Shown here: positions 1 through 13,460 of the stretch, in pieces
How the letters are laid out: each line of letters opens with the position of its first letter
Numbering within the stretch: the stretch's first letter is position 1
Assembly (NCBI GenBank): GCA_963693365.1
Contig: CAVNZM010000077.1
Location: forward strand, 1 to 13,534
DNA: 13,534 nt
Source of the DNA: Amoebidium appalachense
Taxonomy: Eukaryota > Protista > Ichthyosporea
Direction of reading: 5' to 3'
The notes under the pieces: model-generated
Databases searched by the model: none
What the model was told of the DNA's origin: nothing
The model's input: the letters and a program-made list of their open reading frames with translations, nothing else
Position numbers and translations under genes: made by a program

Positions 1-835
1 CCACCACCACCGACGCCCATTGCAGGCCCCGCCCCTCGCGCGAATGGACCACCAGCCTTCCCTCCCATTCTGGCTCCCCTCTACAAGGATGTTACACTCT
101 ACAAGGATGTTATACTGAAAGATTGCTACCTCTACACCCCACCTCCAAATGGCACTGTGGCTGCAGCTAACCAATCCGTAGTGAACGCGCTGTTCCCGAA
201 TGCCAAAATCAGCCAGTTTTCCCAAGAGGAGTTGGACCTCATGCTTGTGGACGCAACCTGGGACGTTAGCCCGGACAGAGCAGATGCGGATCTTGTAGTT
301 ACCGTTCCTCCAGATGCCAATGCCACGGCGTTTGCGGTTCCTCCTGAAGACGCATCAAATACTACATTAACGGTTCCTGTTGCCCTTGATAATGGAACCG
401 TCGTCGATTTTACACCGGAGTTTGACCCCAATACGGGGATGTACACCCAACCTGCAGGTGTTACCCCAAGACCAGATTTCGTCGCGGCGTGCACTAAATT
501 GGTGAACGACAGCGCCTGCCCGGGGCTACCCAGCGAGAAATTTACAAGTTTTGTTCAATCTTGCGTGATGGATTCCATGGTAGCTAATCGCATGCCAGAT
601 GCACAGATTTTGTCAGGAAGCGTCAAGGCCACATGTCAGCAACAGGCTGCTGCTGCCTTGCGGTCAGCCTGCGACAACTGCACTGCGCTGCAGACATGCA
701 GTGGGGGGATTTGTGTAGATTCTGGCTGCCAGCCAAAGGGCTGTGGGCCTGCGGAGAACAAGTGCATCAACAACACGTGTGTGTGCTCGGCGAATTACTA
801 TGGGACGTTCTGCGAATATCAAGCAACACCAGATG
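1..835 (+). CDS. Exon (5'-partial) of multi-exon extracellular EGF-repeat protein; Cys-rich C8-like region plus EGF repeat
   Basis: Frame 1 is open from base 1. Encodes FVQSCVMD and CQPKGCGPAENKCINNTCVCSANYYGTFCE. Phase-1 donor ATG|GTATG at 836, followed by C-run intron sequence. Confidence 0.85.
79..112. repeat. 18-bp-period in-frame tandem duplication (LYKDVT/LYKDVI)
   Basis: CTCTACAAGGATGTTA at 79-94 and 97-112. Confidence 0.85.
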
Positions 836-1811
836 GTATGCATAGCTTGTTGCGTCCGTGCCATCCGTCTTGTGTCCTGTGATCCCCCCCCCCCCCCCCT
901 CCCTCCCCCCCCCCCCCTCCCCCCCCCCCCCCGCACCTCCTCCCTCCCCATCCTTCAACGTTACCCTTTCAACTACCCACTTCGTCCCATCCTTCATGAA
1001 GGTAGGGTCTGTTAAAGGTTTCTTCCTTCTAAATTTGACTGTTCTACCCCCCTTCCCCCCCCTCCCCGCCCCTCCCCACCTCCTTTTTTTTTTTTTTTTT
1101 TTTTGTGGGGGGGGGGGGGGGGGGAGGGGGGATAGCTAAAGCATTTCGGCAATAACAAAAGACAAATCACAGGCCAAAAGCTGTGCTCTCATTGCTCCTG
1201 AAAAGCACCCAAGAAAAAAAGAGGTTAAAATTCAATCTTTCATTCAAAACAAACACAGGACGAATCCTGACAGGACTTTAAAAACACGTTGATGTGCTCC
1301 TTTGTAGTGTGTTCCCCTGTTAATGGCCCTTAGTGTCTTTGCATGGCACCACCATCATCATCCCCCCCCCCCCCCCCCCCCCCCCCCCCCACCCCACCCC
1401 CACCCTCCCCTCTACGTCAAAAAGTTTTTTTAAAGTTTTTTTGTTGATGTTTTTTCGTGATCGCTTGACCAGATCACACTGTTATGCTGTTATCTAAACG
1501 TGTATGTGCAGGGGGTATAAAAACACACTAACTGTGAAATTTTGATGCATTTTCGTCGCGCGGTTCCCGAGTTATTGCATTTTTAATTTTTTGAAACGAG
1601 AATAATGTTATGCTCAAACCTGCAGAACGTTATACAATTTTACTTAGTAAATGTAATTTTGAGTCTAGAATTTCGTTAAAATGCCTTCTCCCCCCCCCAT
1701 CAACATCCCCCCCCCCCCCCCCCCAAACACACACACAGAGCTCGCCATTTATGACAGTTACAATAGCAGTAGGTGACGGAGCTGCAACTAACTCTATCAA
1801 TTATAATGCAG

Positions 1812-1854
1812 AGAACACATGCCAAATGATCCCCAACCTCTGCCTGAATGGAGG
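1812..1854 (+). CDS. Small exon of EGF-repeat protein (ENTCQMIPNLCLNGG)
   Basis: Acceptor TGCAG|, donor |GTATC; phase 1 in, phase 2 out; forms the first half of an EGF domain completed by the next exon. Confidence 0.75.
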
Positions 1855-1888
1855 GTATCGTCTCCCTTGCCTCCTGCTTCTGCAGACA

Positions 1889-1971
<83 letters not shown>

Positions 1972-2208
1972 ACAGATTCAGATACGGACACCACCACCCA
2001 AAAACCCGAAAGAAAAGGCAAATTCATCACCCACTCATGCACACCAACTGATTGCATACCTCTTCCTATCAACCCGCCCAACTCTCCCCCCCATCCACCT
2101 CCCTCCTCCACCCCAAAAAACACAGGTAACAGCCTCAGGCAAACGCACCACATGCACAAATACGAACTCAAAAAAATCTCCCACATGTTGTACTCTCCTC
2201 ACTACTGC

Positions 2209-2290
2209 CACCACCACTGTCACGAGATTCTATACGAGTGAGTGTTGCAAGCACCACCACTATCACGGGATTCTATACGAGTGAGTGTTG
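2209..2290. repeat. Intronic 43-bp-period direct repeat, 2 copies
   Basis: CACCACCACT(G/A)TCACG(A/G)GATTCTATACGAGTGAGTGTTG at 2209 and 2252. Confidence 0.9.
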
Positions 2291-2395
2291 AAATATGTGC
2301 TTGCAAGTTGTTGATTTGACAGATAAAATGTAATCAGCTTTTTGCCTTGAAACAATGCGGCACGCGGAACACTAAAATCATTCAATCCACCATAG

Positions 2396-2469
2396 AACAT
2401 GTGTCGACCTGCCTTTCGGGGATTACAAGTGCAACTGTGTGGCCCCCTTCACCGGTGCAAGCTGTCAAG
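2396..2469 (+). CDS. Exon of EGF-repeat protein (TCVDLPFGDYKCNCVAPFTGASCQ)
   Basis: CATAG| acceptor, AAG|GTATT donor; joins in phase to complete a six-Cys EGF. Confidence 0.85.
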
Positions 2470-2654
2470 GTATTTAGTGTCCCGTGCCCCTCCCTCACCC
2501 CTGCTGCATCCATTGGAGAGAGACAGCCTGTCTCTTACCATTGAAAATCTACACCTTTCTATCCCCCTCCCTCCCCTCCCCTCTTCCCCCCAAGATTCAC
2601 AGTAAGAGTGATTCTCTTGGACTCTAAGACTCACACAACACTTGTATCTCGTAG

Positions 2655-2777
2655 CAAGGGACGAATGCACGCTTGAGATACACAACTGTGCTGCCAAGGC
2701 GGTGTGCACGGACACAGAGAGCAGCTTTACGTGCACCTGCAACCAAGGATATGCAGGCGACGGCACAACATGCACAG
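2655..2777 (+). CDS. Exon encoding a calcium-binding-type EGF domain (RDECTLEIHNCAAKAVCTDTESSFTCTCNQGYAGDGTTCT)
   Basis: CGTAG| acceptor, CAG|GTGAGT donor; phase 1-1 exon holding one EGF domain. Confidence 0.9.
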
Positions 2778-2847
2778 GTGAGTGGTCACGGAACGAACCC
2801 TGATAGCGCGTGGTCATCGCTTTCCCTTATTCTCCTATAAGACAGGA

Positions 2848-2878
<31 letters not shown>

Positions 2879-2921
2879 TGAAGAGAGAGAGAGAGAGAGA
2901 GAGAGTCTCTCACTCACTCAC

Positions 2922-2966
<45 letters not shown>

Positions 2967-3103
2967 TGGGGGGGTTAGGGGGGGGGGGGGGGGAGTCAGC
3001 AGGCTCAAAGAACGGAGGTTGAACTAGATAACTTGAATCAAATATATCAATGTACTACAAACACAAATTCCTACTAATATCAAATCGAACATGTTGCCAC
3101 CAG

Positions 3104-3195
3104 CCATGTGCAGTCTTATCCCGCCCGTGTGCTTGAACGGCGGTGTCTGCGCTCCAGCCGCAACTGATGCCGGATACACCTGCACCTGCCCCAGG
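3104..3195 (+). CDS. Exon of EGF-repeat protein (MCSLIPPVCLNGGVCAPAATDAGYTCTCPR)
   Basis: ACCAG| acceptor, AGG|GTAAGT donor; phase 1 in, phase 0 out. Confidence 0.88.
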
Positions 3196-3393
3196 GTAAG
3201 TACTATGTATGCCTGATGGTAAAATTATAAATATCGCTTACAGCACTCTAAGTTACACATGGTCACGGGTTGCGCATGGGTGCTAGAGTAGTCACGTCAA
3301 CAGTTCCCTTTCCCTTTTACGCCGCGGTTCCGGGAACAACTCCACGTGCCTATTCAGTACGCTCATTCCATTACCCTCTCTCTTTTTTTTCTC

Positions 3394-3427
<34 letters not shown>

Positions 3428-3462
3428 CCCCCTCCCCCCTCTTTTTTTGCCCCCCTGTGCAG

Positions 3463-3880
3463 CTTTTCAGCGGACCACGGTGCGAGACTCCGCTGAATCC
3501 CTACGGAAACATCCAAGGCACCATGTTTGCTGATGTGAACAACAACGGCATTTACGACCCAGACGAGTTTGCGCTCATTGATGCGGCTGTGCAACTGGTG
3601 TCCATCTCAAACTTCACCAATGTCACAGTAGCTTCTGTGTTGACCGAATCCAACGGTAGTTATACTTTCCTGTTTATAAAGCCGGGTACATATGTGGTGA
3701 GGCTGGTAAAACACTCTCTCCTGCCGCCAAGCGCCATGCGTGACAAATTCAAAATTCGCCAATCAGAACACACAGTCTACAGAAGACAAACGGTAGTGGG
3801 CCAGTGGAGTGGGCAAACCGAGCAAACAACTACTGTGCAAGATGGAGTAACAACGACGGTCAGCATGAGCGTGCTGCCAG
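3463..3880 (+). CDS. Exon: end of EGF plus SdrD-B/Cna-B-like beta-sandwich domain
   Basis: Pyrimidine tract then TGCAG|; encodes LFSGPRCE then GNIQGTMFADVNNNGIYDPDE...TESNGSYTFLFIKPGTYVVRL; donor CAG|GTGGGT. Confidence 0.85.
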
Positions 3881-4027
3881 GTGGGTAGCCTGCGGTAGTG
3901 ACTGATATCTACGTGGGGCTGAAGAGATTTGGTGTTGATTTACTTTTGACTTTTGACTTTTGAAGTGTTTACAGATGTCTTTTTTTCACATGGCTGTTAT
4001 TGGGGTCACAGGTAGTTAAAGGATTTA

Positions 4028-4091
4028 GGAATGAATTCTGAACCTTTAACCTCTGAACAGGAGTTCGGAATGAATTCTGAACCTTTAACCT
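4028..4091. repeat. Intronic 25-bp direct repeat, 2 copies (period 39)
   Basis: GGAATGAATTCTGAACCTTTAACCT at 4028 and 4067. Confidence 0.9.
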
Positions 4092-4171
4092 TCTATATGG
4101 ACACACGTTCTGTTTGAACACACCTTCTGTTTGAAGAAACGGCAAACTTATTCAAAAACACTCCCCCTCAG

Positions 4172-5003
4172 ATTTCGCTTTGTGTGCAAACGGCACCCAT
4201 AACTGTGATGTTAGTGCCACTTGTACAGCCAACGCTACCGAGTTCACCTGCACGTGCAACGCCGGTTACGTAGGCAGCGGGACTGTTTGCACACCTGCAC
4301 CTACAACAACAACAACCACAACCACAACAACCACAACAACCACCGCCTTAACCACCGCCTCAACCACCACGACAACGCCTACAACAACTCTGTCATCTCC
4401 ATCTGCCGTCTCAGTGGACCCGGCACCAGCACCAGCCACCACTACACCAAGCAGCACACCATTAGCAGTTACATGTGCTTCTGGTACTCATGGATGCAGT
4501 GTGAATGCTACGTGCTCAGACACCGCAACCGGGGTAACATGCACGTGCAATAGCGGATACGCGGGGGATGGAACCACGTGTACACCAGTAACTAGTTCGA
4601 GTGGTAGTTGGACTGCAGTTTCGACCCAAACCACAACCACAACCACAACCATTACGTCTGACACTCAGGCAGTGGTGAGCCCGACACACATTCCTCCGAG
4701 GAACTTCTCCCATTCCTCCGGCTGTTTCTCTTCCAGCCAAGCATTTACTTTCATGCTTTCCAATGCTGGGGTAGGTGCGGTTAAGTCGGCGGAAGCTCGC
4801 ACGATATTCAACACGACCGACCCGACCAACGGCGGTTACTGCTTAAGTTTGAAGTCTCCAACTATGGGTGAAATGCTTTACGACTGCGAGTTCCCGTCGA
4901 CCCCCGGGCTTGTCGGATCCTATGACCCCATTCAGGGTCTTCTAACGATCACAGGAGAGGTGGCGAGATGCCCCGTCAGCATCGAAGCGTGGGAGTGCCA
5001 GAG
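4172..5003 (+). CDS. Exon: two EGF domains separated by Thr/Ser/Pro mucin-like linkers, plus C-terminal globular domain
   Basis: CCCCCTCAG| acceptor; CANGTHNCDVSATC...GYVGSGTVC and CASGTHGCSVNATC...GYAGDGTTC; poly-Thr; donor GAG|GTATGT. Confidence 0.85.
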
Positions 5004-5316
5004 GTATGTTTTTCTTTGTCTACGTAAGGCTAAGCACACGACATCTGAACATTGACTTCTAGCCGCCAGTTGTGTGTGCTGCATGACTCTTTTCTTTAAC
5101 ACATGCTCCAAATTACAACTTTTGCTACAGTTTATACTTTTTGTGCCCCATAAATACCACACCTCTACACAGCCGTATGGGCCTAAGCTCAAATCCCCCC
5201 CCCCCCCCCCCCCCCCCCTCCCCCCCCCCCCCCCCCCAAAAAAAAAAAAAAAAAAAAAAGAGAAGAAAAAAAGTGGGGGGGGGGGGGGGGGGGGGGGGGG
5301 ATAAAAGGAGATGGGG

Positions 5317-5729: not shown

Positions 5730-6752
5730 TTATTTTTGCAATTTTGGGTCAAAAATAAGTTGCCGCGCTTGCTCCTTCCACCACTCCAGGTGCTCTCCAT
5801 CAGGGTCCAAAAATACATTGTCCTTAGCCAATCGCTCAAGCATACTTCCAAGTGTGCCCCATTGTTCGCGTAGCCAAATGGGAAAAGGCTGAATAGACGA
5901 CCCTTGGTTCACCTTGATTGACATCGATGCAGGCTGGTTGGGGAGCGTGTGAAGAAGAGCCTTACGCGAACCTCGACATTCTATCCACTCGCCTTGGCTG
6001 GCAAGTCGCCGAACCTCAAATTTTACGCCAGTGTCCAGTTTGATCCATCGGAAGCATCGCCATTTTGCGAAGTACGACAGGGGATCGGCGCAAGGGGCTA
6101 ACCACTCTGTGAACTCTGGAATGGCTTGTACATTGTGCACCTCAGGAGGCTCCACCACTCTCCCTCTTTGGCGAATATACGGCGCTAAATCTTTCGATCT
6201 TGGTCGCTTTTTCAAAGTCTCCATCAAATCGGGAACAGTCCGCGGCGGTTGCTCAGTCAGGTAATGGTTGAATCCCCGAAAGCGGCCATCGATATCCTCG
6301 TGCGTATGTCCCGGAAGAAGGAACGAACACTCCACAGTGGTGAACACACCCCTAGAAACGAGTAATTCAAAAAATTGCATCATTGCGTTGCAATGATTCT
6401 CGGAGGCGTTATCCATTTGCACGTACAACGTCTCTGGCAACGAGCCCCGTATCTCCAATTCACGCTCGATTGCCAACGTGAGTGCCGCGATTTGGACATT
6501 GGCACCCTTGCGACCGTGCTCATCCACGATTGTGTAGAGGGTGCGGCCATGAACGAGGACACTGGTTATCCGAACGGCCTTCTTGGGAATCGAGCTCGCG
6601 GCTTTGGAGTTCCAATGTACGTTCGGGATTTCGGATTTTGCTTGGTCCATTGAGTCAACGATGACACTCATGTACTTGTGTGGCTCCCGAATTGCAGCTG
6701 ACCGATGCTGGTAATAGCTCTCTCTCTCCTTTCTGTGACATCTCATGGTCAA
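5730..6752 (-). CDS. Sola-like / DUF7869-type DDD transposase catalytic domain, probably 5'-incomplete
   Basis: 340-codon ORF with motifs VIVDSMDQAK, LYVQMDNASENHCN and SFLLPGHTHEDIDGRF, recognised from memory of this family. No TIR or TSD identified. Confidence 0.75.
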   Translation of the reverse strand: MTMRCHRKERESYYQHRSAAIREPHKYMSVIVDSMDQAKSEIPNVHWNSKAASSIPKKAVRITSVLVHGRTLYTIVDEHGRKGANVQIAALTLAIERELEIRGSLPETLYVQMDNASENHCNAMMQFFELLVSRGVFTTVECSFLLPGHTHEDIDGRFRGFNHYLTEQPPRTVPDLMETLKKRPRSKDLAPYIRQRGRVVEPPEVHNVQAIPEFTEWLAPCADPLSYFAKWRCFRWIKLDTGVKFEVRRLASQGEWIECRGSRKALLHTLPNQPASMSIKVNQGSSIQPFPIWLREQWGTLGSMLERLAKDNVFLDPDGEHLEWWKEQARQLIFDPKLQK

Positions 6753-6782
6753 TCACTATATATATGGTTAGGAGGATCCTAA

Positions 6783-6909
6783 TCCTAGTGTCAACCAGGA
6801 GACCCGATCCTAATCACAACTAGGACTCTGGATCCTAGTTACAACTAGGACAATATATCCTAGTTACAACTAGGATGACGTCATCCTAGTTGGTACTAGG
6901 ATGACGTCA
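6783..6909. repeat. Array of five 18-bp imperfect palindromes (TCCTAGTTACAACTAGGA), period 25-26 bp
   Basis: Copies at 6783, 6808, 6833, 6858, 6884; spacers GACCCGA, CTCTGGA, CAATATA, TGACGTCA. Confidence 0.9.
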
Positions 6910-6928
6910 CTCGTTTATCTTCAATGGC

Positions 6929-7036
6929 TGTACGACACAACTGTGCGGTTTCATGCACTCTAATAATTGCGAATATGTGTGTGTACGACAAAGCTGTGCG
7001 GTTTCATGCACTCTAGTTGCGAATATGTGTATGTAT
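6929..7036. repeat. ~53-bp tandem direct repeat, 2 copies
   Basis: TGTACGACA...CTGTGCGGTTTCATGCACTCTA...TTGCGAATATGTGT at 6929 and 6982. Confidence 0.88.
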
Positions 7037-7184
7037 ATAGTGACATACTTTGATTGCAGGAAGTTGCTACCAAAGAGATGTGCGCGATGCGGTGATTTGA
7101 AATACATGTGATGTCGCCAGATACAAACCCAAATACCAACCCAAATACCCTACGCGCAGGCACACACGTACACACAGTCACTTG

Positions 7185-8190
<1,006 letters not shown>

Positions 8191-8364
8191 AATGAGTTCG
8201 GGGGGCCCAGTCTAGTTATCTCTTCTCGCCCCCTCCTCTCTTCTTCTAGTCTAAGCTTGTGTCACTATATAAGATGAAAATACAAATCCTAAATACAGAA
8301 GATGTCGAAATGTCAAAAATCCGGAAAATCGTCAATTTTGTAATTTTAATAGAGTAGAAATTGG

Positions 8365-8401
8365 GTACCTACGGAAGCCTACGGAACTTTCGCGGTGCTC
8401 C
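8365..8401 (-). mobile_element. 37-bp mitochondrial insertion element, intergenic copy
   Basis: Reverse complement GGAGCACCGCGAAAGTTCCGTAGGCTTCCGTAGGTAC matches the three tRNA-inserted copies. Confidence 0.8.
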
Positions 8402-8470
8402 ATTTTATAATAATCTTAAATTGTAATTCAACTTATTTCTTCAAACAGTAGTAAATCTAGTTCTATTTAA

Positions 8471-8544
8471 TGTAGAGACGGATTACGGTTGATCCATTAG
8501 ACTCATGATCTAATTCCTTGTAGGTTCGACTCCTACCTCTACAA
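8471..8544 (+). tRNA. trnM: tRNA-Met(CAU), possibly initiator
   Basis: Acceptor TGTAGAG/CTCTACA; anticodon arm TTAGA-CTCATGA-TCTAA; T-loop TTCGACT. Confidence 0.9.
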
Positions 8545-8562
8545 CTTTTTTAATTATCATTA

Positions 8563-8635
8563 GCTCATAAAGCTCAATTGGTTGAGCGCAGAATTGAAAA
8601 TTCTGAGGTTCTAGGTTCAAGCCCTTGGATGAGCA
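8563..8635 (+). tRNA. trnF: tRNA-Phe(GAA)
   Basis: Acceptor GCTCAT/ATGAGC; arm CAGAA-TTGAAAA-TTCTG. Confidence 0.9.
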
Positions 8636-8638
8636 CTC

Positions 8639-8711
8639 TGAGAATTAGCCAAGTTGGTAAGGCATTACTTTTTGGTAGTAACAACCGAAGGTTCGAATCC
8701 TTCATTCTCAT
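8639..8711 (+). tRNA. trnQ: tRNA-Gln(UUG)
   Basis: TGAGAAT/ATTCTCA; TTACT-TTTTGGT-AGTAA. Confidence 0.93.
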
Positions 8712-8721
8712 CACTCCAATC

Positions 8722-8794
8722 GTTGATATAGCTCAATGGTTAGAGTTTAGTATTGCAAATACTAATGTTGTAGGTTCAAATCCTACTATCAACT
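8722..8794 (+). tRNA. trnC: tRNA-Cys(GCA)
   Basis: GTTGATA/TATCAAC; TAGTA-TTGCAAA-TACTA. Confidence 0.93.
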
Positions 8795-8810
8795 TTCCTA
8801 ATATTCTCTT

Positions 8811-8882
8811 GCTAGTGTAGCTTAATGGTGAAGCATCTGTCTTGTAAACAGAAGAATGTGGGTTCAAGTCCTACTACTAGCT
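8811..8882 (+). tRNA. trnT: tRNA-Thr(UGU)
   Basis: GCTAGTG/TACTAGC; TCTGT-CTTGTAA-ACAGA. Confidence 0.93.
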
Positions 8883-8886
8883 CTCT

Positions 8887-8959
8887 AGGTATTTAGCTTA
8901 ATTGGCAAAGCATGCAACTAATAATTGCAAGGATGATGGTTCAACTCCTTCAGTACCTA
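8887..8959 (+). tRNA. trnI: tRNA-Ile(AAU)
   Basis: AGGTATT/AGTACCT; TGCAA-CTAATAA-TTGCA. Confidence 0.87.
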
Positions 8960-8963
8960 CCTT

Positions 8964-9036
8964 ATCTCTGTAGCTCAATTGGTAGAGCATTTCACTTCCA
9001 ATGAAATTGTTATGGGTTCAAGTCTCATCTGAGATA
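8964..9036 (+). tRNA. trnG: tRNA-Gly(UCC)
   Basis: ATCTCTG/CTGAGAT (one U-U); TTTCA-CTTCCAA-TGAAA. Confidence 0.9.
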
Positions 9037-9042
9037 CGTTAC

Positions 9043-9151
9043 GAGCATATAACTTAATTATTATAGCATGCAACTAATAATTGCAATAATTATAGTTGGA
9101 GCACCACGAAAGTTCTTTAGATTTCCGTAGGTACCAACTTCTCCGTACCTA
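9043..9151 (+). pseudogene. Chimeric trnA/trnI(AAU) pseudogene with 37-bp insertion in the T-loop
   Basis: 5' end resembles trnA (GAGCATATAACTTAATT), anticodon arm identical to trnI, 3' end GTACCTA as in trnI; acceptor halves do not pair. Confidence 0.8.
9098..9134 (+). mobile_element. 37-bp insertion element in T-loop (TT^CAA)
   Basis: GGAGCACCACGAAAGTTCTTTAGATTTCCGTAGGTAC between GTT and CAACT. Confidence 0.85.
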
Positions 9152-9184
9152 CCTTATCTCTGTAGCTCAATTGGTAGAGCATTT

Positions 9185-9212
9185 GGGACGTCCAGAGTTA
9201 CCACGGCAGGAC
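9185..9212 (+). mobile_element. 28-bp insertion in anticodon stem (TT^CA)
   Basis: GGGACGTCCAGAGTTACCACGGCAGGAC, absent from the intact trnG copy. Confidence 0.75.
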
Positions 9213-9238
9213 CACTTCCAATGAAATTGTTATGGGTT

Positions 9239-9275
9239 GGAGCATCGCGAAAGTTCCATAGGCTTCCGTAGGTAC
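9239..9275 (+). mobile_element. 37-bp insertion element in T-loop (TT^CAA)
   Basis: GGAGCATCGCGAAAGTTCCATAGGCTTCCGTAGGTAC between GGGTT and CAAGT. Confidence 0.88.
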
Positions 9276-9299
9276 CAAGTCTCATCAGAGATACGTTCT

Positions 9300-9372
9300 G
9301 GGCATATAGCTTAATTGGTATAGCATCTGTTTTGCATACAGAAGATTATAGGTTCAAGTCCTATTATGTCCA
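9300..9372 (+). tRNA. trnA: tRNA-Ala(UGC)
   Basis: GGGCATA/TATGTCC with G3:U70; TCTGT-TTTGCAT-ACAGA. Confidence 0.94.
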
Positions 9373-9388
9373 ACTATCAAGATATGAC

Positions 9389-9471
9389 GAAGAAGAGGCG
9401 ATCTGGAAGCAAGCTCTCTTGAAAAGAGTCGCTCTATTGTTGAGTAGTAGGTTCGAATCCTGCCTTCTTCG
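9389..9471 (+). tRNA. trnS: tRNA-Ser(UGA)
   Basis: GAAGAAG/CTTCTTC; GCTCT-CTTGAAA-AGAGT; long variable arm; G discriminator. Confidence 0.88.
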
Positions 9472-9519
9472 ATTTATGTACAACCATCCATAGTAGTATA
9501 CCACAATAAGTTGTCGAGT

Positions 9520-9592
9520 CAGAAAATAGCTCAATTGGTCGAGCACTCGTTTTGGGAACGAGAGGTTATAGGTTCAAGTCCTATTTTTCTGA
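9520..9592 (+). tRNA. trnP: tRNA-Pro(UGG)
   Basis: CAGAAAA/TTTTCTG; CTCGT-TTTGGGA-ACGAG. Confidence 0.94.
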
Positions 9593-9619
9593 TCTAGTGT
9601 CGAATGTGTTACATTAGTA

Positions 9620-9692
9620 TCTTCAGTAGTTCAATAGGTAGATCACTCGTCTGTTAAACGAAGGGTTATAGGTTCGAGTCCTATCTGAAGAG
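9620..9692 (+). tRNA. trnN: tRNA-Asn(GUU)
   Basis: TCTTCAG/CTGAAGA; CTCGT-CTGTTAA-ACGAA. Confidence 0.92.
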
Positions 9693-9707
9693 GTACGAAT
9701 AGAGTCG

Positions 9708-9780
9708 AGGTATTTAGCTCAATTGGTAGAGCATAATCCTTACAAGATTACGGCTGTAGGTTCAAGTCCTGCAATACCTA
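9708..9780 (+). tRNA. trnV: tRNA-Val(UAC)
   Basis: AGGTATT/AATACCT; TAATC-CTTACAA-GATTA. Confidence 0.94.
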
Positions 9781-9794
9781 TTACACCAAAGGTA

Positions 9795-9868
9795 ATTGAT
9801 ATAGCTCAATAGGATAGAGCAGTACACTTCTAATGTACTGGTTGTAGGTTCAAGTCCTACTATCAACT
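9795..9868 (+). tRNA. trnR: tRNA-Arg(UCU)
   Basis: ATTGATA/TATCAAC (A1-C72 mismatch); GTACA-CTTCTAA-TGTAC. Confidence 0.92.
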
Positions 9869-9890
9869 AATTTGAGTACTTAATTAAGAG

Positions 9891-9973
9891 ATCTCTGTGT
9901 CGAAATTGGTAAACGAGTTGTATTAAGGGTGCAATGACGAATAGTCTTATGAGTTCAAGTCTCATCGGAGATA
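9891..9973 (+). tRNA. trnL: tRNA-Leu(AAG)
   Basis: ATCTCTG/CGGAGAT; TTGTA-TTAAGGG-TGCAA; long variable arm; Leu-type D-arm TCGAAATTGGTAAACGA. Confidence 0.88.
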
Positions 9974-9981
9974 GAGTATGA

Positions 9982-10064
9982 AGGATGATGGCTGAGTGGT
10001 CAATAGCGTATCACTGTAAATGATATCCTTTTTAGGTTCGAAGGTTCAAATCCTTCTCATCCTA
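9982..10064 (+). tRNA. trnY: tRNA-Tyr(GUA)
   Basis: AGGATGA/TCATCCT; TATCA-CTGTAAA-TGATA; long variable arm. Confidence 0.94.
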
Positions 10065-10086
10065 TTCTTAATATTGAGACAAATCC

Positions 10087-10220
10087 AAGTGTAACTTGGT
10101 TATTGTGACGATTAGGTACCAAATAACAAAGTGTAACTTGGTTATTGTGACGACTAGGTACCAAATAACAAAGTGTAACTTGGTTATTGTGACGACTAGG
10201 TACCAAATAACCAAGTGTAA
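10087..10220. repeat. 42-bp tandem repeat, 3 copies plus 8 bp, running into the trnH 5' end
   Basis: AAGTGTAACTTGGTTATTGTGACGA(T/C)TAGGTACCAAATAAC(A/C) at 10087, 10129, 10171. Confidence 0.95.
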
Positions 10221-10288
10221 GTAGATCAATTGGTTAGATCATTGATTTGTGGCGTCAAAGGTTAGTGGTTCAATTCCACTCTTACACT
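10215..10288 (+). tRNA. trnH: tRNA-His(GUG)
   Basis: GTGTAAG/CTTACAC; TTGAT-TTGTGGC-GTCAA. Confidence 0.92.
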
Positions 10289-10304
10289 CTTACATTCGAG
10301 TACA

Positions 10305-10385
10305 GAAGAGATTGCTGTTTGGTAAAGCATTCAAATTGCTAATTTGACGCCTTCGGGCTCGTGAGTTCAAGTCTCACTCTCTTCG
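10305..10385 (+). tRNA. trnS: tRNA-Ser(GCU)
   Basis: GAAGAGA/TCTCTTC; TCAAA-TTGCTAA-TTTGA; variable arm GCCTTCGGGC. Confidence 0.92.
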
Positions 10386-10394
10386 AATATTCTA

Positions 10395-10466
10395 GCACCA
10401 TTCGTCTAACGGTTAGGACCTTGATTTTTCATGTCAATAATAGTGGTTCGATTCCACTATGGTGCA
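10395..10466 (+). tRNA. trnE: tRNA-Glu(UUC)
   Basis: GCACCAT/ATGGTGC; TTGAT-TTTTCAT-GTCAA. Confidence 0.94.
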
Positions 10467-10477
10467 TACAAATAATA

Positions 10478-10551
10478 GTTGATATAGTTCAATTGGATAG
10501 AATAGTTGACTACGGATCAATAGGTTGTAGGTTCAAGTCCTACTATCAACT
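10478..10551 (+). tRNA. trnR: tRNA-Arg(ACG)
   Basis: GTTGATA/TATCAAC; GTTGA-CTACGGA-TCAAT. Confidence 0.93.
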
Positions 10552-10605
10552 TACAAACTTAAGATTACTTTAACCACTCTAACTTTTAGGAGAAGAGATA
10601 ACATA

Positions 10606-10714
10606 TCTAGTGTAGCTTAATGGTGAAGCATCTGTCTTGTAAACAGAAGAATGTGGGTTAGAGCACCGCGAAAGTTCCATAGATTTCCGTAGGTACCAAG
10701 TCCTACTGCTAGCT
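10606..10714 (+). pseudogene. trnT: Second trnT(UGU) copy with 37-bp T-loop insertion
   Basis: Matches 8811-8882 apart from the insertion and two acceptor-stem changes (G1>T; TACTAGC>TGCTAGC). Confidence 0.87.
10660..10696 (+). mobile_element. 37-bp insertion element in T-loop (TT^CAA)
   Basis: AGAGCACCGCGAAAGTTCCATAGATTTCCGTAGGTAC between GGGTT and CAAGT. Confidence 0.88.
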
Positions 10715-11181: not shown

Positions 11182-11424
<243 letters not shown>

Positions 11425-12194: not shown

Positions 12195-13460
12195 ATGGAA
12201 AAATATCTTTATAAAAATAATAATAATCCTATCTTAGCGATAGTTAATTGAATGGTTGTGCGCTTGGCAGTGCCAAGTTATTTTAGTTATTTATGAAATT
12301 TTGGTTCCTCTTCTGGAATTTGTTTAGTAGTACCAATGTTAATTGGAGTATTTATATCCATACTCCAACCCGGGCATGTTAATTTAACATCCCAAGTAGT
12401 AGTAGTATTAGGAGATCCGGTATTATGATTAATCTGAGGCTTATATGTATATGTAGCCTCGGTGTTCTTCATCCTATTTGGAATAGTAAGGAGATATTAC
12501 AATGAGTTACAAGCCTTTGTAACATCTGCCTTTGAAGATTATAAAGATACGTTCGTATCTTTAATTTATTTATGAGCAGCTTACTTATTATTAGTTGCAT
12601 TAGTTTTATTTACTGTTGGTATCAAATTCTGCGAGAATATTTATCGAACCTATTCTAGGTATAGTCGATTATATTCTACGCTACCAGCACCAGATACTCT
12701 TTATGATAGTGACTATTTTACGTTTGAAAATAAACAGATACACCAAGCCTATTTAATTGGATTACTAGATGCTTGTGGCTGGGTTTCTGTTAGTAAGGAT
12801 AAGAAGGGAGTACAACATGAAATAGGGATGGAATTACCTATAGAAAATGAGGATCTTGTTAAATTATTGCATCAAGCAACTAAAATAGGTACTATAAGTT
12901 ATAAAAGTAATATTTCAGGGTCTCGCACGATACAGTGAAAGATTAGAGATAAAGTACATTTAACTTATCTATCTGTTCTCCTCTATAAGTACCCTTTATT
13001 AACCAGTAAACATTCTGATTTTCAACATTTTATTGACACTATGCATATTAAATCTTACCAGGATCTTCCGGATTATACTCGTCCTTCAAATTCTCACTTG
13101 ACAATCGTAGAAATATTGAGTACTTCGTATTTCAAAGAGTGGCTAGTGGGGTATTTAGAGGTTAAAGCTCGCTTTAAATTCTATAGAATAAATCATCTTA
13201 AGACAGCTAGGTTCGAAATTACTTCTATTACAGATTATAATATATTCGCAGCCATAGCTCATTTCTTAGATTTAAACCATAAAATGAGTCCCGATGCAGG
13301 TTCCTATCAGTTTAGAAGCCATAACATTGGTGTTCTTAAAAAAGTTATCTCTTTCTTTTCTCTCACGTCTGTGTCCATGCTAGGTGCTAACCTATTACAT
13401 TATAAGACATGATTAGCTCACTTACGTGTACTTCCTCATTATCGTAATAAACTATCTTAA
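12195..13460 (+). CDS. 421-aa ORF: degenerate cytochrome b-like N-terminal membrane region fused to a degenerate double-motif LAGLIDADG domain
   Basis: Read codon by codon with TGA=Trp: no TAA/TAG from ATG 12195 to TAA 13458-13460. N-terminus NPILAIVN...SYLWNFGS..GICL; motifs YLIGLLDACG (12750-12779) and WLVGYLEVKA (13140-13169); KYPLLTSK. Confidence 0.88.

What the first reader, a model, noticed from the sequence alone, without database searches (positions are those of the whole stretch)
8365..10696. Site-specific 37-bp mitochondrial element that inserts in the tRNA T-loop at TT^CAA with no target duplication
Seen: four 37-bp copies (8365-8401 on the minus strand, 9098, 9239, 10660), consensus GGAGCACCGCGAAAGTTCCATAGRYTTCCGTAGGTAC. 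Three sit at the same position, between T55 and C56 of the T-loop, in copies of three different tRNAs (Ile, Gly, Thr). Comparison with the intact paralogs gives exact boundaries and no TSD. The 5' part folds as GGAGC/GTTCC, and TTGG...CCAA across the junctions could pair. Known: small mobile repeats occur in fungal mtDNA (yeast GC clusters, Allomyces double-hairpin elements, Magnusiomyces byps), but I do not know one that targets the T-loop. Inference: a non-autonomous, sequence-specific mobile element, or less likely a mini-intron removed from the RNA.
Basis: partly seen in the sequence, partly recalled or inferred. Interest (0 to 1): 0.9.

Follow-up and report, generated by a model that had tools for sequence, protein, structure and literature searches.

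The report
Chromosome-end repeat inserted in tRNA T-loops
A 37-base repeat sits at exactly the same spot in the T-loop of several spare, likely dead mitochondrial tRNA gene copies with no duplicated target, and its other copies likely belong to the end block of linear mitochondrial chromosomes, from which it was probably copied in more than once.

Summary
In detail: four 37-nt copies, three between T55 and C56 of Ile-like, Gly and Thr tRNA copies, with exact ends and no duplication. Contigs of other runs carry them.

Three things are new:
1. The unit is multi-copy. All 14 interpretable 5'-flank rows fall into two contexts: tRNA T-arms (also Pro- and Met-like, and at low depth Tyr-, Ser- and Arg-like copies), or one AT-rich block next to a shared end sequence, likely a linear chromosome end as in Amoebidium.
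2. The Gly copy holds a second, 28-nt insert with the same junction grammar (T^GG...AC^CA) in its anticodon stem.
3. The decayed tRNA copies recombine freely, even across the unit.

Best reading (0.45): repeated, duplication-free, sequence-specific copy-in from the end block, likely by target-primed reverse transcription. Close rival (0.35): one capture spread by gene conversion. A spliced mini-intron is unlikely (0.04; no BHB helix).

T-loop preference over other TTCAA sites is not significant in the window (P 0.10-0.15), and the hairpin is weak. It works like Allomyces-type mitochondrial repeats. I found no description of it, but the key 2003 Amoebidium paper was not readable.

The parts
8207..8316 (.). 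Shared end block, likely the left end of a linear mitochondrial chromosome
   Evidence: the first bin is deep in all 4 runs; other molecules leave the block at 8316/8317 (X2, X7); an X7 contig starts at 8207 at the same depth as 8373-8841. End status is inferred.
8365..8401 (-). 37-nt unit, copy 1, 48 nt inside the end block; flanks AT^CCAA
   Evidence: homologous flanks on other molecules
8811..8882 (+). Intact trnT(ugu), the empty paralog of copy 4
8887..8959 (+). Intact trnI(aau), the empty paralog of the Ile-like copy's 3' half
8964..9036 (+). Intact trnG(ucc), the empty paralog for both inserts
9043..9151 (+). Decayed Ala/Ile chimeric tRNA copy, interrupted
   Evidence: the 5' part resembles trnA, the anticodon arm and 3' part resemble trnI; not found by ARAGORN or Rfam
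9098..9134 (+). 37-nt unit, copy 2, at T55^C56
   Evidence: bridged by X4 and X19 contigs with 0 differences
9156..9293 (+). trnG copy with two inserts; otherwise 72 of 73 identical to intact trnG
   Evidence: X14 contig in one piece
9185..9212 (+). 28-nt insert in the anticodon stem (29/30) at TTT^CA; starts GG, ends AGGAC; no TSD
   Evidence: Only the ends resemble the 37-nt unit (global alignment p 0.07-0.2).
9239..9275 (+). 37-nt unit, copy 3, at T55^C56
10087..10220 (+). 42-nt tandem array (3.2 units) sharing the 10-mer TAGGTACCAA with the right junction of copies 2-4; possibly related
   Evidence: dispersed elsewhere by loose ends at 10135, 10136 and 10174
10606..10714 (+). trnT copy, interrupted; 2 substitutions, one breaking pair 1:72
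10660..10696 (+). 37-nt unit, copy 4, at T55^C56 (first base A)
12195..13460 (+). ORF (code 4) with a cob-like start and a LAGLIDADG domain; a possible but unlinked source of nicks
   Evidence: PF00961, E 1.3e-15. No evidence ties it to the unit.

Best explanation
The 37-nt unit is a multi-copy mitochondrial repeat found at T55^C56 of several spare tRNA gene copies and in one AT-rich block beside a shared end sequence; it was likely copied from that end block into T-loops more than once by a sequence-specific step that leaves no duplication, probably target-primed reverse transcription. Shown: exact TSD-free junctions, an intact paralog for each window copy, many copies, two contexts, and a second insert with the same junctions. 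Inferred steps: (1) The block is the 5' end of linear chromosomes and is transcribed. (2) That RNA carries the unit antisense to its T-loop orientation and reads ...CUCC-A at the unit's end. (3) A nick after T55 would give a 3'-T primer that pairs with this A, and a group II intron reverse transcriptase would write GG...AC. (4) The new strand would rejoin at C56. Only redundant tRNA copies tolerate the insert; they decay and are multiplied further by array duplication and by crossovers inside the unit.
For: Junctions are exact with no TSD.

The Gly and Thr copies keep their own bases on both sides up to the junction. They share only 6+6 flanking nt with each other and 3+3 with the Ile-like copy; T-arm identity over +/-12 nt is 14, 9 and 14 of 24. 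That is little homology for conversion without carry-over.

Further filled T-arms:
- Pro-like (joint 9574>10656; X4 depth 9.0, X19 22.1).
- Met-like (X3) and an ATAGG T-stem on a Gly arm (X3, X19).
- Tyr-, Ser- and two Arg-like copies at depth 28-128, in X2 only.

The 28-nt insert lies outside the T-arm yet has T^GG...AC^CA junctions (chance about 1.6e-4 before any post-hoc correction). T-arm conversion cannot place it there.

A T precedes the unit in all 4 window copies. Relative to the genes' strand, copy 1 and the T-loop copies are inverted.

A. parasiticum mtDNA has at least 2 group II and 21 group I introns (PMC7027106 table). RT plus endonuclease priming was proposed for Podospora ultra-short elements (PMC2670323 section 9), and an RNA route for TSD-free Allomyces elements (PMC2800124 section 23).
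Against: No enzyme is identified, and no whole genome was available. T-loop preference over other TTCAA sites is not significant in the window (P 0.10-0.15).

Recombination among decayed tRNA copies is evident (Ala/Ile chimera; Gly-5'/Ile-3' hybrid across the unit; Gly/Met hybrid). The Met-like copy's two changes next to the junction make it Tyr/Gln-like, as co-conversion would.

No empty end-block allele was seen among the 15 of 38 joints shown, so mobility at the donor site is unshown. The hairpin is weak and lacks covariation. The two inserts are not significantly alike internally. The Tyr, Ser and Arg cases come from one run at low depth with 22-27-letter sides and could be nuclear copies or chimeras. 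The RNA status of X19 is only a guess.
Confidence: 0.45

Rival explanations
1. One capture, then homology-driven spread. The unit is a fixed cis-motif of the chromosome end (promoter or replication signal). It was captured once into a T-loop through the TT/CAA microhomology and then passed among similar T-arms by gene conversion and crossovers in the tRNA pseudogene arrays, with no dedicated insertion enzyme.
For: An end-block copy with exactly TT^unit^CAA flanks exists (X14 record 6, 9237-9278). Only two contexts were seen, always with one orientation in T-loops. Hybrids are joined across the unit and the doubly interrupted Gly copy is duplicated. Mean T-arm identity is 0.62, up to 0.96. tRNA gene recruitment is reported for A. 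parasiticum (PMC7027106). Yeast GC42 moves by recombination at conserved flanks (PMC4478555).
Against: The Gly and Thr copies show no carried-over base on either side although the first differences lie 7 nt from the junction. The Ile-like 3' half shares only 3 nt. The 28-nt insert with the same junctions lies outside the T-arm and needs a separate coincidence.
Confidence: 0.35
2. A generic small mobile element with a short T^CA-type target. T-loops are simply the commonest such sites in a tRNA array, and only spare copies survive the hit.
For: Half of the TTCAA sites are T-loops (22 of 44; P 0.10-0.15). Copy 1 is at AT^CCAA and the 28-nt insert at TTT^CA. One X14 3' flank fits neither context. 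Only 24 of 406 and 24 of 50 loose-end rows were shown, many as consensus rows with 0.6-0.9 agreement.
Against: No third class appears among 14 interpretable 5'-flank rows (8 end-block type, 6 T-arm type). All 22 non-T-loop TTCAA sites in the window are empty, although intergenic hits should be harmless.
Confidence: 0.1
3. The inserts are mini-introns removed from pre-tRNA, so the interrupted copies are functional.
For: Positions 55/56 and 29/30 resemble non-canonical intron sites (D- and T-loop introns in archaea and red algae, PMC13578239). The doubly interrupted Gly copy has a perfect acceptor stem where the intact gene has a T-T pair.
Against: The BHB central helix is 0-2 of 4 pairs. There are no group I or II features and no Rfam intron hit at E<1. 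The other filled copies are decayed (3-11 differences per Gly-like contig). Every window copy has an intact paralog. The same unit lies outside tRNAs.
Confidence: 0.04
4. Assembly artefact or post-transfer decay in a nuclear copy.
For: The window joins nuclear-type DNA (1 to about 8200) to mitochondrial DNA, and that join is not bridged by X4, X7 or X19.
Against: The inserts are present with 0 differences in contigs of X3, X4, X14 and X19 at the depth of the rest of the molecule.
Confidence: 0.01

Closest known systems
Allomyces and Schizosaccharomyces mitochondrial double-hairpin elements (DHE)
   Same: Short, GC-richer than the genome, non-coding mitochondrial units. The Allomyces ones lack flanking duplications and an RNA route was suggested (PMC2800124 section 23).
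   Different: One weak hairpin, not two strong ones; GC 46-59% against the >75% screen used for fission-yeast DHEs. Those DHEs are intergenic or in rRNA (PMC10085805 passages). Here there is one fixed tRNA position and one end-block position.
Yeast GC clusters (GC42) and Magnusiomyces byps
   Same: About 40 nt, multi-copy, variable loop, recombinogenic; mobility mechanism unsettled (PMC4478555 passages).
   Different: They carry AG or ACT target duplications; this unit has none. Not in coding sequence here. The byp paper was not readable; byp details are recalled or second-hand.
Podospora MUSE ultra-short elements
   Same: Proposed RT plus endonuclease priming (PMC2670323 section 9); found at recombination junctions (PMC1864894 passages).
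   Different: 11 nt against 37 nt; no tRNA site reported in what I saw. The original paper was not held.
Sponge RHEs, placozoan SIRs and Volvox palindromes
   Same: Hairpin repeats in mitochondrial DNA; one placozoan hairpin sits in trnS(uga) (PMC7813641).
   Different: That hairpin is in the variable arm of a working tRNA and read as one ancestral event. The others are intergenic, intronic, rRNA or in variable protein regions.
Terminal and identically oriented end sequences of Amoebidium parasiticum mtDNA
   Same: Hundreds of linear chromosomes with ITR and 5'/3' IOS; the 5' IOS was proposed to start transcription (PMC2518934 passages). 24 tRNAs were used from two records (PMC7027106 section 7); ARAGORN finds 24 here. 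The end-block copy may be part of those described patterns.
   Different: Not comparable directly: the primary paper and the GenBank record were not available. The organism here is not named by any search.
IS200/IS605 and REP/RAYT HUH systems (recalled, no paper read)
   Same: No TSD, short target, imperfect hairpin; both inserts open with GGAG or GGGA like REP tetranucleotides (recalled).
   Different: No HUH protein among the 7 window ORFs scanned; no exact match of the core pattern in bacterial or archaeal genomes.

Membership tests
Mitochondrial short mobile repeats (DHE/RHE/GC-cluster kind) | Short non-coding unit in many dispersed copies in mtDNA | tested here: met
   4 copies in the window. 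Summed contig depth 493 vs 13.9 (X4) and 9387 vs about 298 (X3), inflated by overlapping contigs; at least 10 contigs with other 5' flanks in X19.
Mitochondrial short mobile repeats (DHE/RHE/GC-cluster kind) | Filled and empty homologous sites | tested here: met
   Intact paralogs of 3 of 3 tRNA copies. No empty site was seen for the end-block copy.
Mitochondrial short mobile repeats (DHE/RHE/GC-cluster kind) | Stable hairpin beyond chance | tested here: inconclusive
   Consensus about -8 kcal/mol on either strand; z mostly above -2; 0 double-sided changes, 6 one-sided changes that keep pairs on the + strand.
Double-hairpin elements (DHE) | Two adjacent GC-rich hairpins | tested here: not met
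   A single imperfect stem in both consensus folds; two small stems only in copy 3 alone; GC 46-59%.
Yeast GC clusters / byps | Target-site duplication (AG, ACT) | tested here: not met
   No duplicated base at 3 of 3 tRNA sites.
Archaeal or algal-type tRNA intron | Bulge-helix-bulge with a 4-bp central helix at the junctions | tested here: not met
   Central helix 2, 0, 0 of 4 for the T-loop copies and 1 of 4 for the 28-nt insert (BHB geometry from my own knowledge).
Archaeal or algal-type tRNA intron | Insert removed from mature tRNA | not testable with these tools
   No run is on record as RNA; only contigs were available, and the joint test failed its positive control.
Group I / group II intron | Catalytic core; terminal G (group I) or GUGYG start with domain V (group II) | tested here: not met
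   37 nt, starts GGAGC and ends AC; no intron family among 39 Rfam matches at E<1. Consensus ends recalled.
IS200/IS605 or REP/RAYT | Cognate HUH (Y1/RAYT) transposase | tested here: inconclusive
   None among 7 window ORFs scanned with Pfam; the rest of the genome is not held.
Retroelement mobilised by target-primed reverse transcription (MUSE model) | Transcribed template and an RT in the organelle | tested here: inconclusive
   The unit is far deeper than its flanks in X19 (27748 vs tens), but X19 is only guessed to be RNA and contigs give no strand. No RT gene lies in the window.
Amoebidium-type chromosome-end sequences (ITR/IOS) | Shared block at the ends of many linear chromosomes | tested here: inconclusive
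   A shared block 8207-8316 with diverging inner flanks.

The most novel reading that the evidence does not exclude
A mitochondrial SINE-like pathway. RNA from linear chromosome ends folds into a short helix ending in CCA, and an intron reverse transcriptase writes it, and sibling units such as the 28-nt insert, into tRNA genes nicked at T^CA, above all at T55^C56. This would give a TSD-free, tRNA-targeted retroelement whose master copy is a chromosome-end motif.
Probability: 0.2. Interest if true: 0.8.

Novelty: new variant of a known kind. Interest (0 to 1): 0.5.

Why it matters
How protein-free 30-50-nt repeats spread in mitochondrial DNA is unsettled: the papers read list cut-and-paste, retrotransposition and gene conversion without deciding. 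Here every insertion has a known empty paralog, a single-base-exact junction and nearby marker bases, and two different inserts share the junction grammar. A census of one genome could therefore separate targeted insertion from conversion. It would also tie a likely chromosome-end motif to the tRNA pseudogene shuffling behind tRNA gene recruitment in a close relative of animals. The limit on interest is that only spare, decaying tRNA copies are hit, and the end-block copy may already be among published terminal patterns.

Tried and rejected
Whole-genome census: no genome is held.

Exact-pattern scans found 0 matches in metagenome, viral and prokaryotic collections. The 80 nad6-related loci (628 kb, at most 59% identity) hold no copy; the best ungapped match is 25 of 37. 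They are too distant to test empty/filled alleles.

RNA test:
- No RNA holder listed; X19 is a guess.
- In one search the intact trnG, known to be in X4, gave no skip joint, so the absence of a spliced joint means nothing.
- In one search no row at 9030 or 8876 appears among the 40 of 47 variant rows shown; contigs drop rare forms, so this is not used as evidence.

Internal homology of the 37- and 28-nt inserts is not significant (p 0.07 and 0.20), nor is that of the 22-nt core of the tandem array (p 0.56). The pattern TTGG..AGG(N)ACCA gives 8 hits against 0.73 expected, but it was built after seeing the inserts and the hits collapse to 3 families plus 1 other. Group II domain V resemblance was rejected.

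Rows dropped before counting flanks: the two X14 contigs at 9220-9262 (depth 5000 and 1868, 5 mismatches, leaving inside the unit) as likely unrelated, and the 9280 rows (agreement 0.62-0.63) as unreadable mixtures. X2's 11097>9188 joint was first read as a Trp copy, then rejected as a mutated Gly copy.

Script slips: one search counted two D-loop sites as T-loops (24) and mis-assigned Tyr (21); the true count is 22, hence the P range.

nad6 and atp9 searches named no close taxon. Earlier-finding look-ups by place, by sequence and by one word set returned nothing.


Full report
Setting. Bases 1 to about 8200 are nuclear-type DNA: microsatellites, EGF-domain exons and a DUF7869 ORF. From about 8207 the sequence is mitochondrial: 24 tRNAs on one strand, then atp9, nad6 and a cob-like/LAGLIDADG ORF read with TGA=Trp. 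No whole genome is held. No call names the organism. The layout resembles Amoebidium parasiticum mtDNA, which has hundreds of linear chromosomes with shared end sequences (PMC2518934 passages), 24 tRNAs on two records and tRNA gene recruitment (PMC7027106 passages and section 7). That likeness is an inference. The exact atp9 protein is in UniRef and nr, so this mtDNA has probably been deposited and annotated.

Observation. Four copies are at the stated coordinates and differ by 2-6 bases. Three interrupt tRNA copies at T55^C56 with unambiguous ends and no duplication. With the inserts removed, the Gly copy is 72 of 73 identical to intact trnG and the Thr copy differs at 2 bases. The 'Ile' copy is a decayed Ala/Ile chimera. 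Of 24 listed runs I laid 6 (X2, X3, X4, X7, X14, X19). Their contigs reproduce the inserts with 0 differences: X14 in one piece over 9155-9300, and X4 and X19 over copy 2.

Copy number and contexts. Summed contig depth over the unit is 493 against 13.9 in X4 and 9387 against about 298 in X3. Overlapping contigs inflate this, so I read it as ten to a few tens of distinct contexts. The tool showed 24 of 406 and 24 of 50 loose-end rows. Of the 5'-flank rows at the unit, 14 could be read and 1 was set aside. Eight rows (4 per call, possibly the same contigs twice) are one AT-rich family homologous to the flank of window copy 1; six are tRNA T-arms; none is a third class. Of the 3' rows, 7 fit the AT-rich family, 1 (X14) fits neither, and 2 are unreadable mixtures.

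Position of the non-tRNA copies. Copy 1 lies 48 nt from 8316, where other molecules leave a deep shared block that begins at 8207. One X14 3' flank continues into the same spacer sequence. A second flank class overlaps by 4 nt the reverse of an X2 loose end at 8316, giving about 49 nt (compared by eye, weak). So the non-tRNA copies likely hold one fixed position near chromosome ends, conserved while the spacers diverge.

More filled T-loops. Beyond the window there is a Pro-like copy (X4 depth 9.0, X19 22.1), a Met-like copy (X3) and a Gly arm with an ATAGG T-stem (X3, X19). Tyr-, Ser- and two Arg-like joints appear in X2 only, at depth 28-128 with 22-27-letter sides. The Tyr and Ser ones differ from the intact genes, which argues for real diverged copies, possibly nuclear, rather than simple chimeras. 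Orientation is the same in all. Other contigs hold duplicated, further decayed doubly interrupted Gly copies and a Gly-5'/Ile-3' hybrid joined across the unit, so the unit also acts as a recombination site.

Is the T-loop targeted? Landing three times at T55^C56 by random position is excluded (about 7e-8). But 22 of 44 TTCAA sites in the insert-free stretch are T-loops, so given a TTCAA target, 3 of 3 has P 0.10-0.15. The case for more than a 5-nt target rests on the absence of a third context in a partial sample.

Structure. The copies fold into one imperfect hairpin of about -8 kcal/mol on either strand, with no double-sided compensatory change and z mostly above -2. On the strand opposite to the tRNA, the terminal stem is followed by unpaired UCC plus a flanking A. 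This is a lead, not evidence; the parallel with CCA-primed fungal retroplasmids is recalled. BHB geometry fails and Rfam shows no intron family.

Mechanism. For repeated insertion: the Gly and Thr copies keep native bases 7 nt from the junction on both sides; filled T-arms share only 9-14 of 24 flanking bases; and the 28-nt insert has the same T^GG...AC^CA junctions outside the T-arm (about 1.6e-4, post hoc). For conversion: an end-block copy with TT^...^CAA flanks exists (X14 record 6); chimeras are common; T-arms average 62% identity; and the Met-like flank looks Tyr/Gln-like. I put repeated copy-in at 0.45, naming target-primed reverse transcription as the likeliest chemistry because it explains the invariant T before GG, the inverted orientation and the missing duplication. 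Conversion gets 0.35, a generic short target 0.10, splicing 0.04 and artefact 0.01. No enzyme, nick or RNA intermediate is shown.

Known systems. It works like Allomyces-type TSD-free mitochondrial repeats (PMC2800124 passages and section 23). It is not a DHE (one stem, lower GC; PMC10085805 passages), not a GC42-type cluster (no TSD; PMC4478555 passages) and not a BHB intron (PMC10485636 and PMC13578239 passages). I also saw passages of PMC7813641, PMC2670323 with section 9, PMC1864894, PMC6140425, PMC7194472 and PMC8303319. Burger 2003, Koll 1996 and Lang 2014 were not held. Paquin 2000 and Lavrov and Lang 2005 are known only through citing passages. The PMC7027106 supplement was unreadable and may show the tRNA alignment.

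Novelty. Ten library searches (one search returned 0 papers) showed no mitochondrial repeat at a fixed T-loop position in the listings or passages seen. The library lacks the primary Amoebidium paper. Earlier AI notes report hairpin inserts in spare tRNA copies of Patescibacteria; they are untested leads. Verdict: a real, unusual variant of mitochondrial short mobile repeats, interest 0.5.

Noticed in passing
window about 8186-8207: Nuclear-type DNA joins mitochondrial DNA at a poly-G tract. In X4, X7 and X19 the single overrunning record is at the right end, so the join is unbridged: an assembly chimera or a very recent NUMT.
   Followed up: partly
window 10087-10220: The 42-nt tandem unit contains a 39-nt palindrome (ACTT...AAGT) that is dispersed elsewhere, may have a 3-nt duplication, and shares TAGGTACCAA with the unit's right junction (0.05 expected).
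   Followed up: partly
window 8887-8959, 9891-9973, 10478-10551: A34 anticodons: trnI(aau), trnL(aag), trnR(acg). No trnL(uaa), trnL(uag) or trnI(gau) among the 24 tRNAs on this molecule.
   Followed up: no
window 8964-9036 vs 9156-9293: The intact trnG has a T-T mismatch at pair 6:67, while the doubly interrupted copy has the perfect pair.
   Followed up: partly
window 12195-13460: A 421-aa ORF with a weak cytochrome b N-terminus (below the Pfam cut-off) fused to a LAGLIDADG domain: likely a homing endonuclease behind a decayed cob exon.
   Followed up: partly
window 13499: X4, X7 and X19 carry one more 22-nt repeat unit than the window and all run 51 nt past the window's end.
   Followed up: no
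window 8571-8737 and 11185-11354: X19 holds diverged paralogs (12 differences in 167 nt over Phe-Gln-Cys; 17 in 170 nt of atp9): other chromosomes, NUMTs or a second strain.
   Followed up: no
window 5730-6752 (-), 6754-7045: A DUF7869 ORF (E 2.5e-34) next to a 290-nt stretch bounded by inverted CACTATATA; the same motif recurs at 8263. Possibly a nuclear DNA transposon and MITE.
   Followed up: no
window 10034-10049: The trnY variable arm contains a GGTTCGA T-loop mimic just before the true T-loop; one X2 joint (10037>10656) may place the unit there.
   Followed up: no
window 1-5055: An intron-rich gene with EGF and SdrD_B-like domains and Thr-rich stretches, likely a secreted or surface protein.
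   Followed up: no
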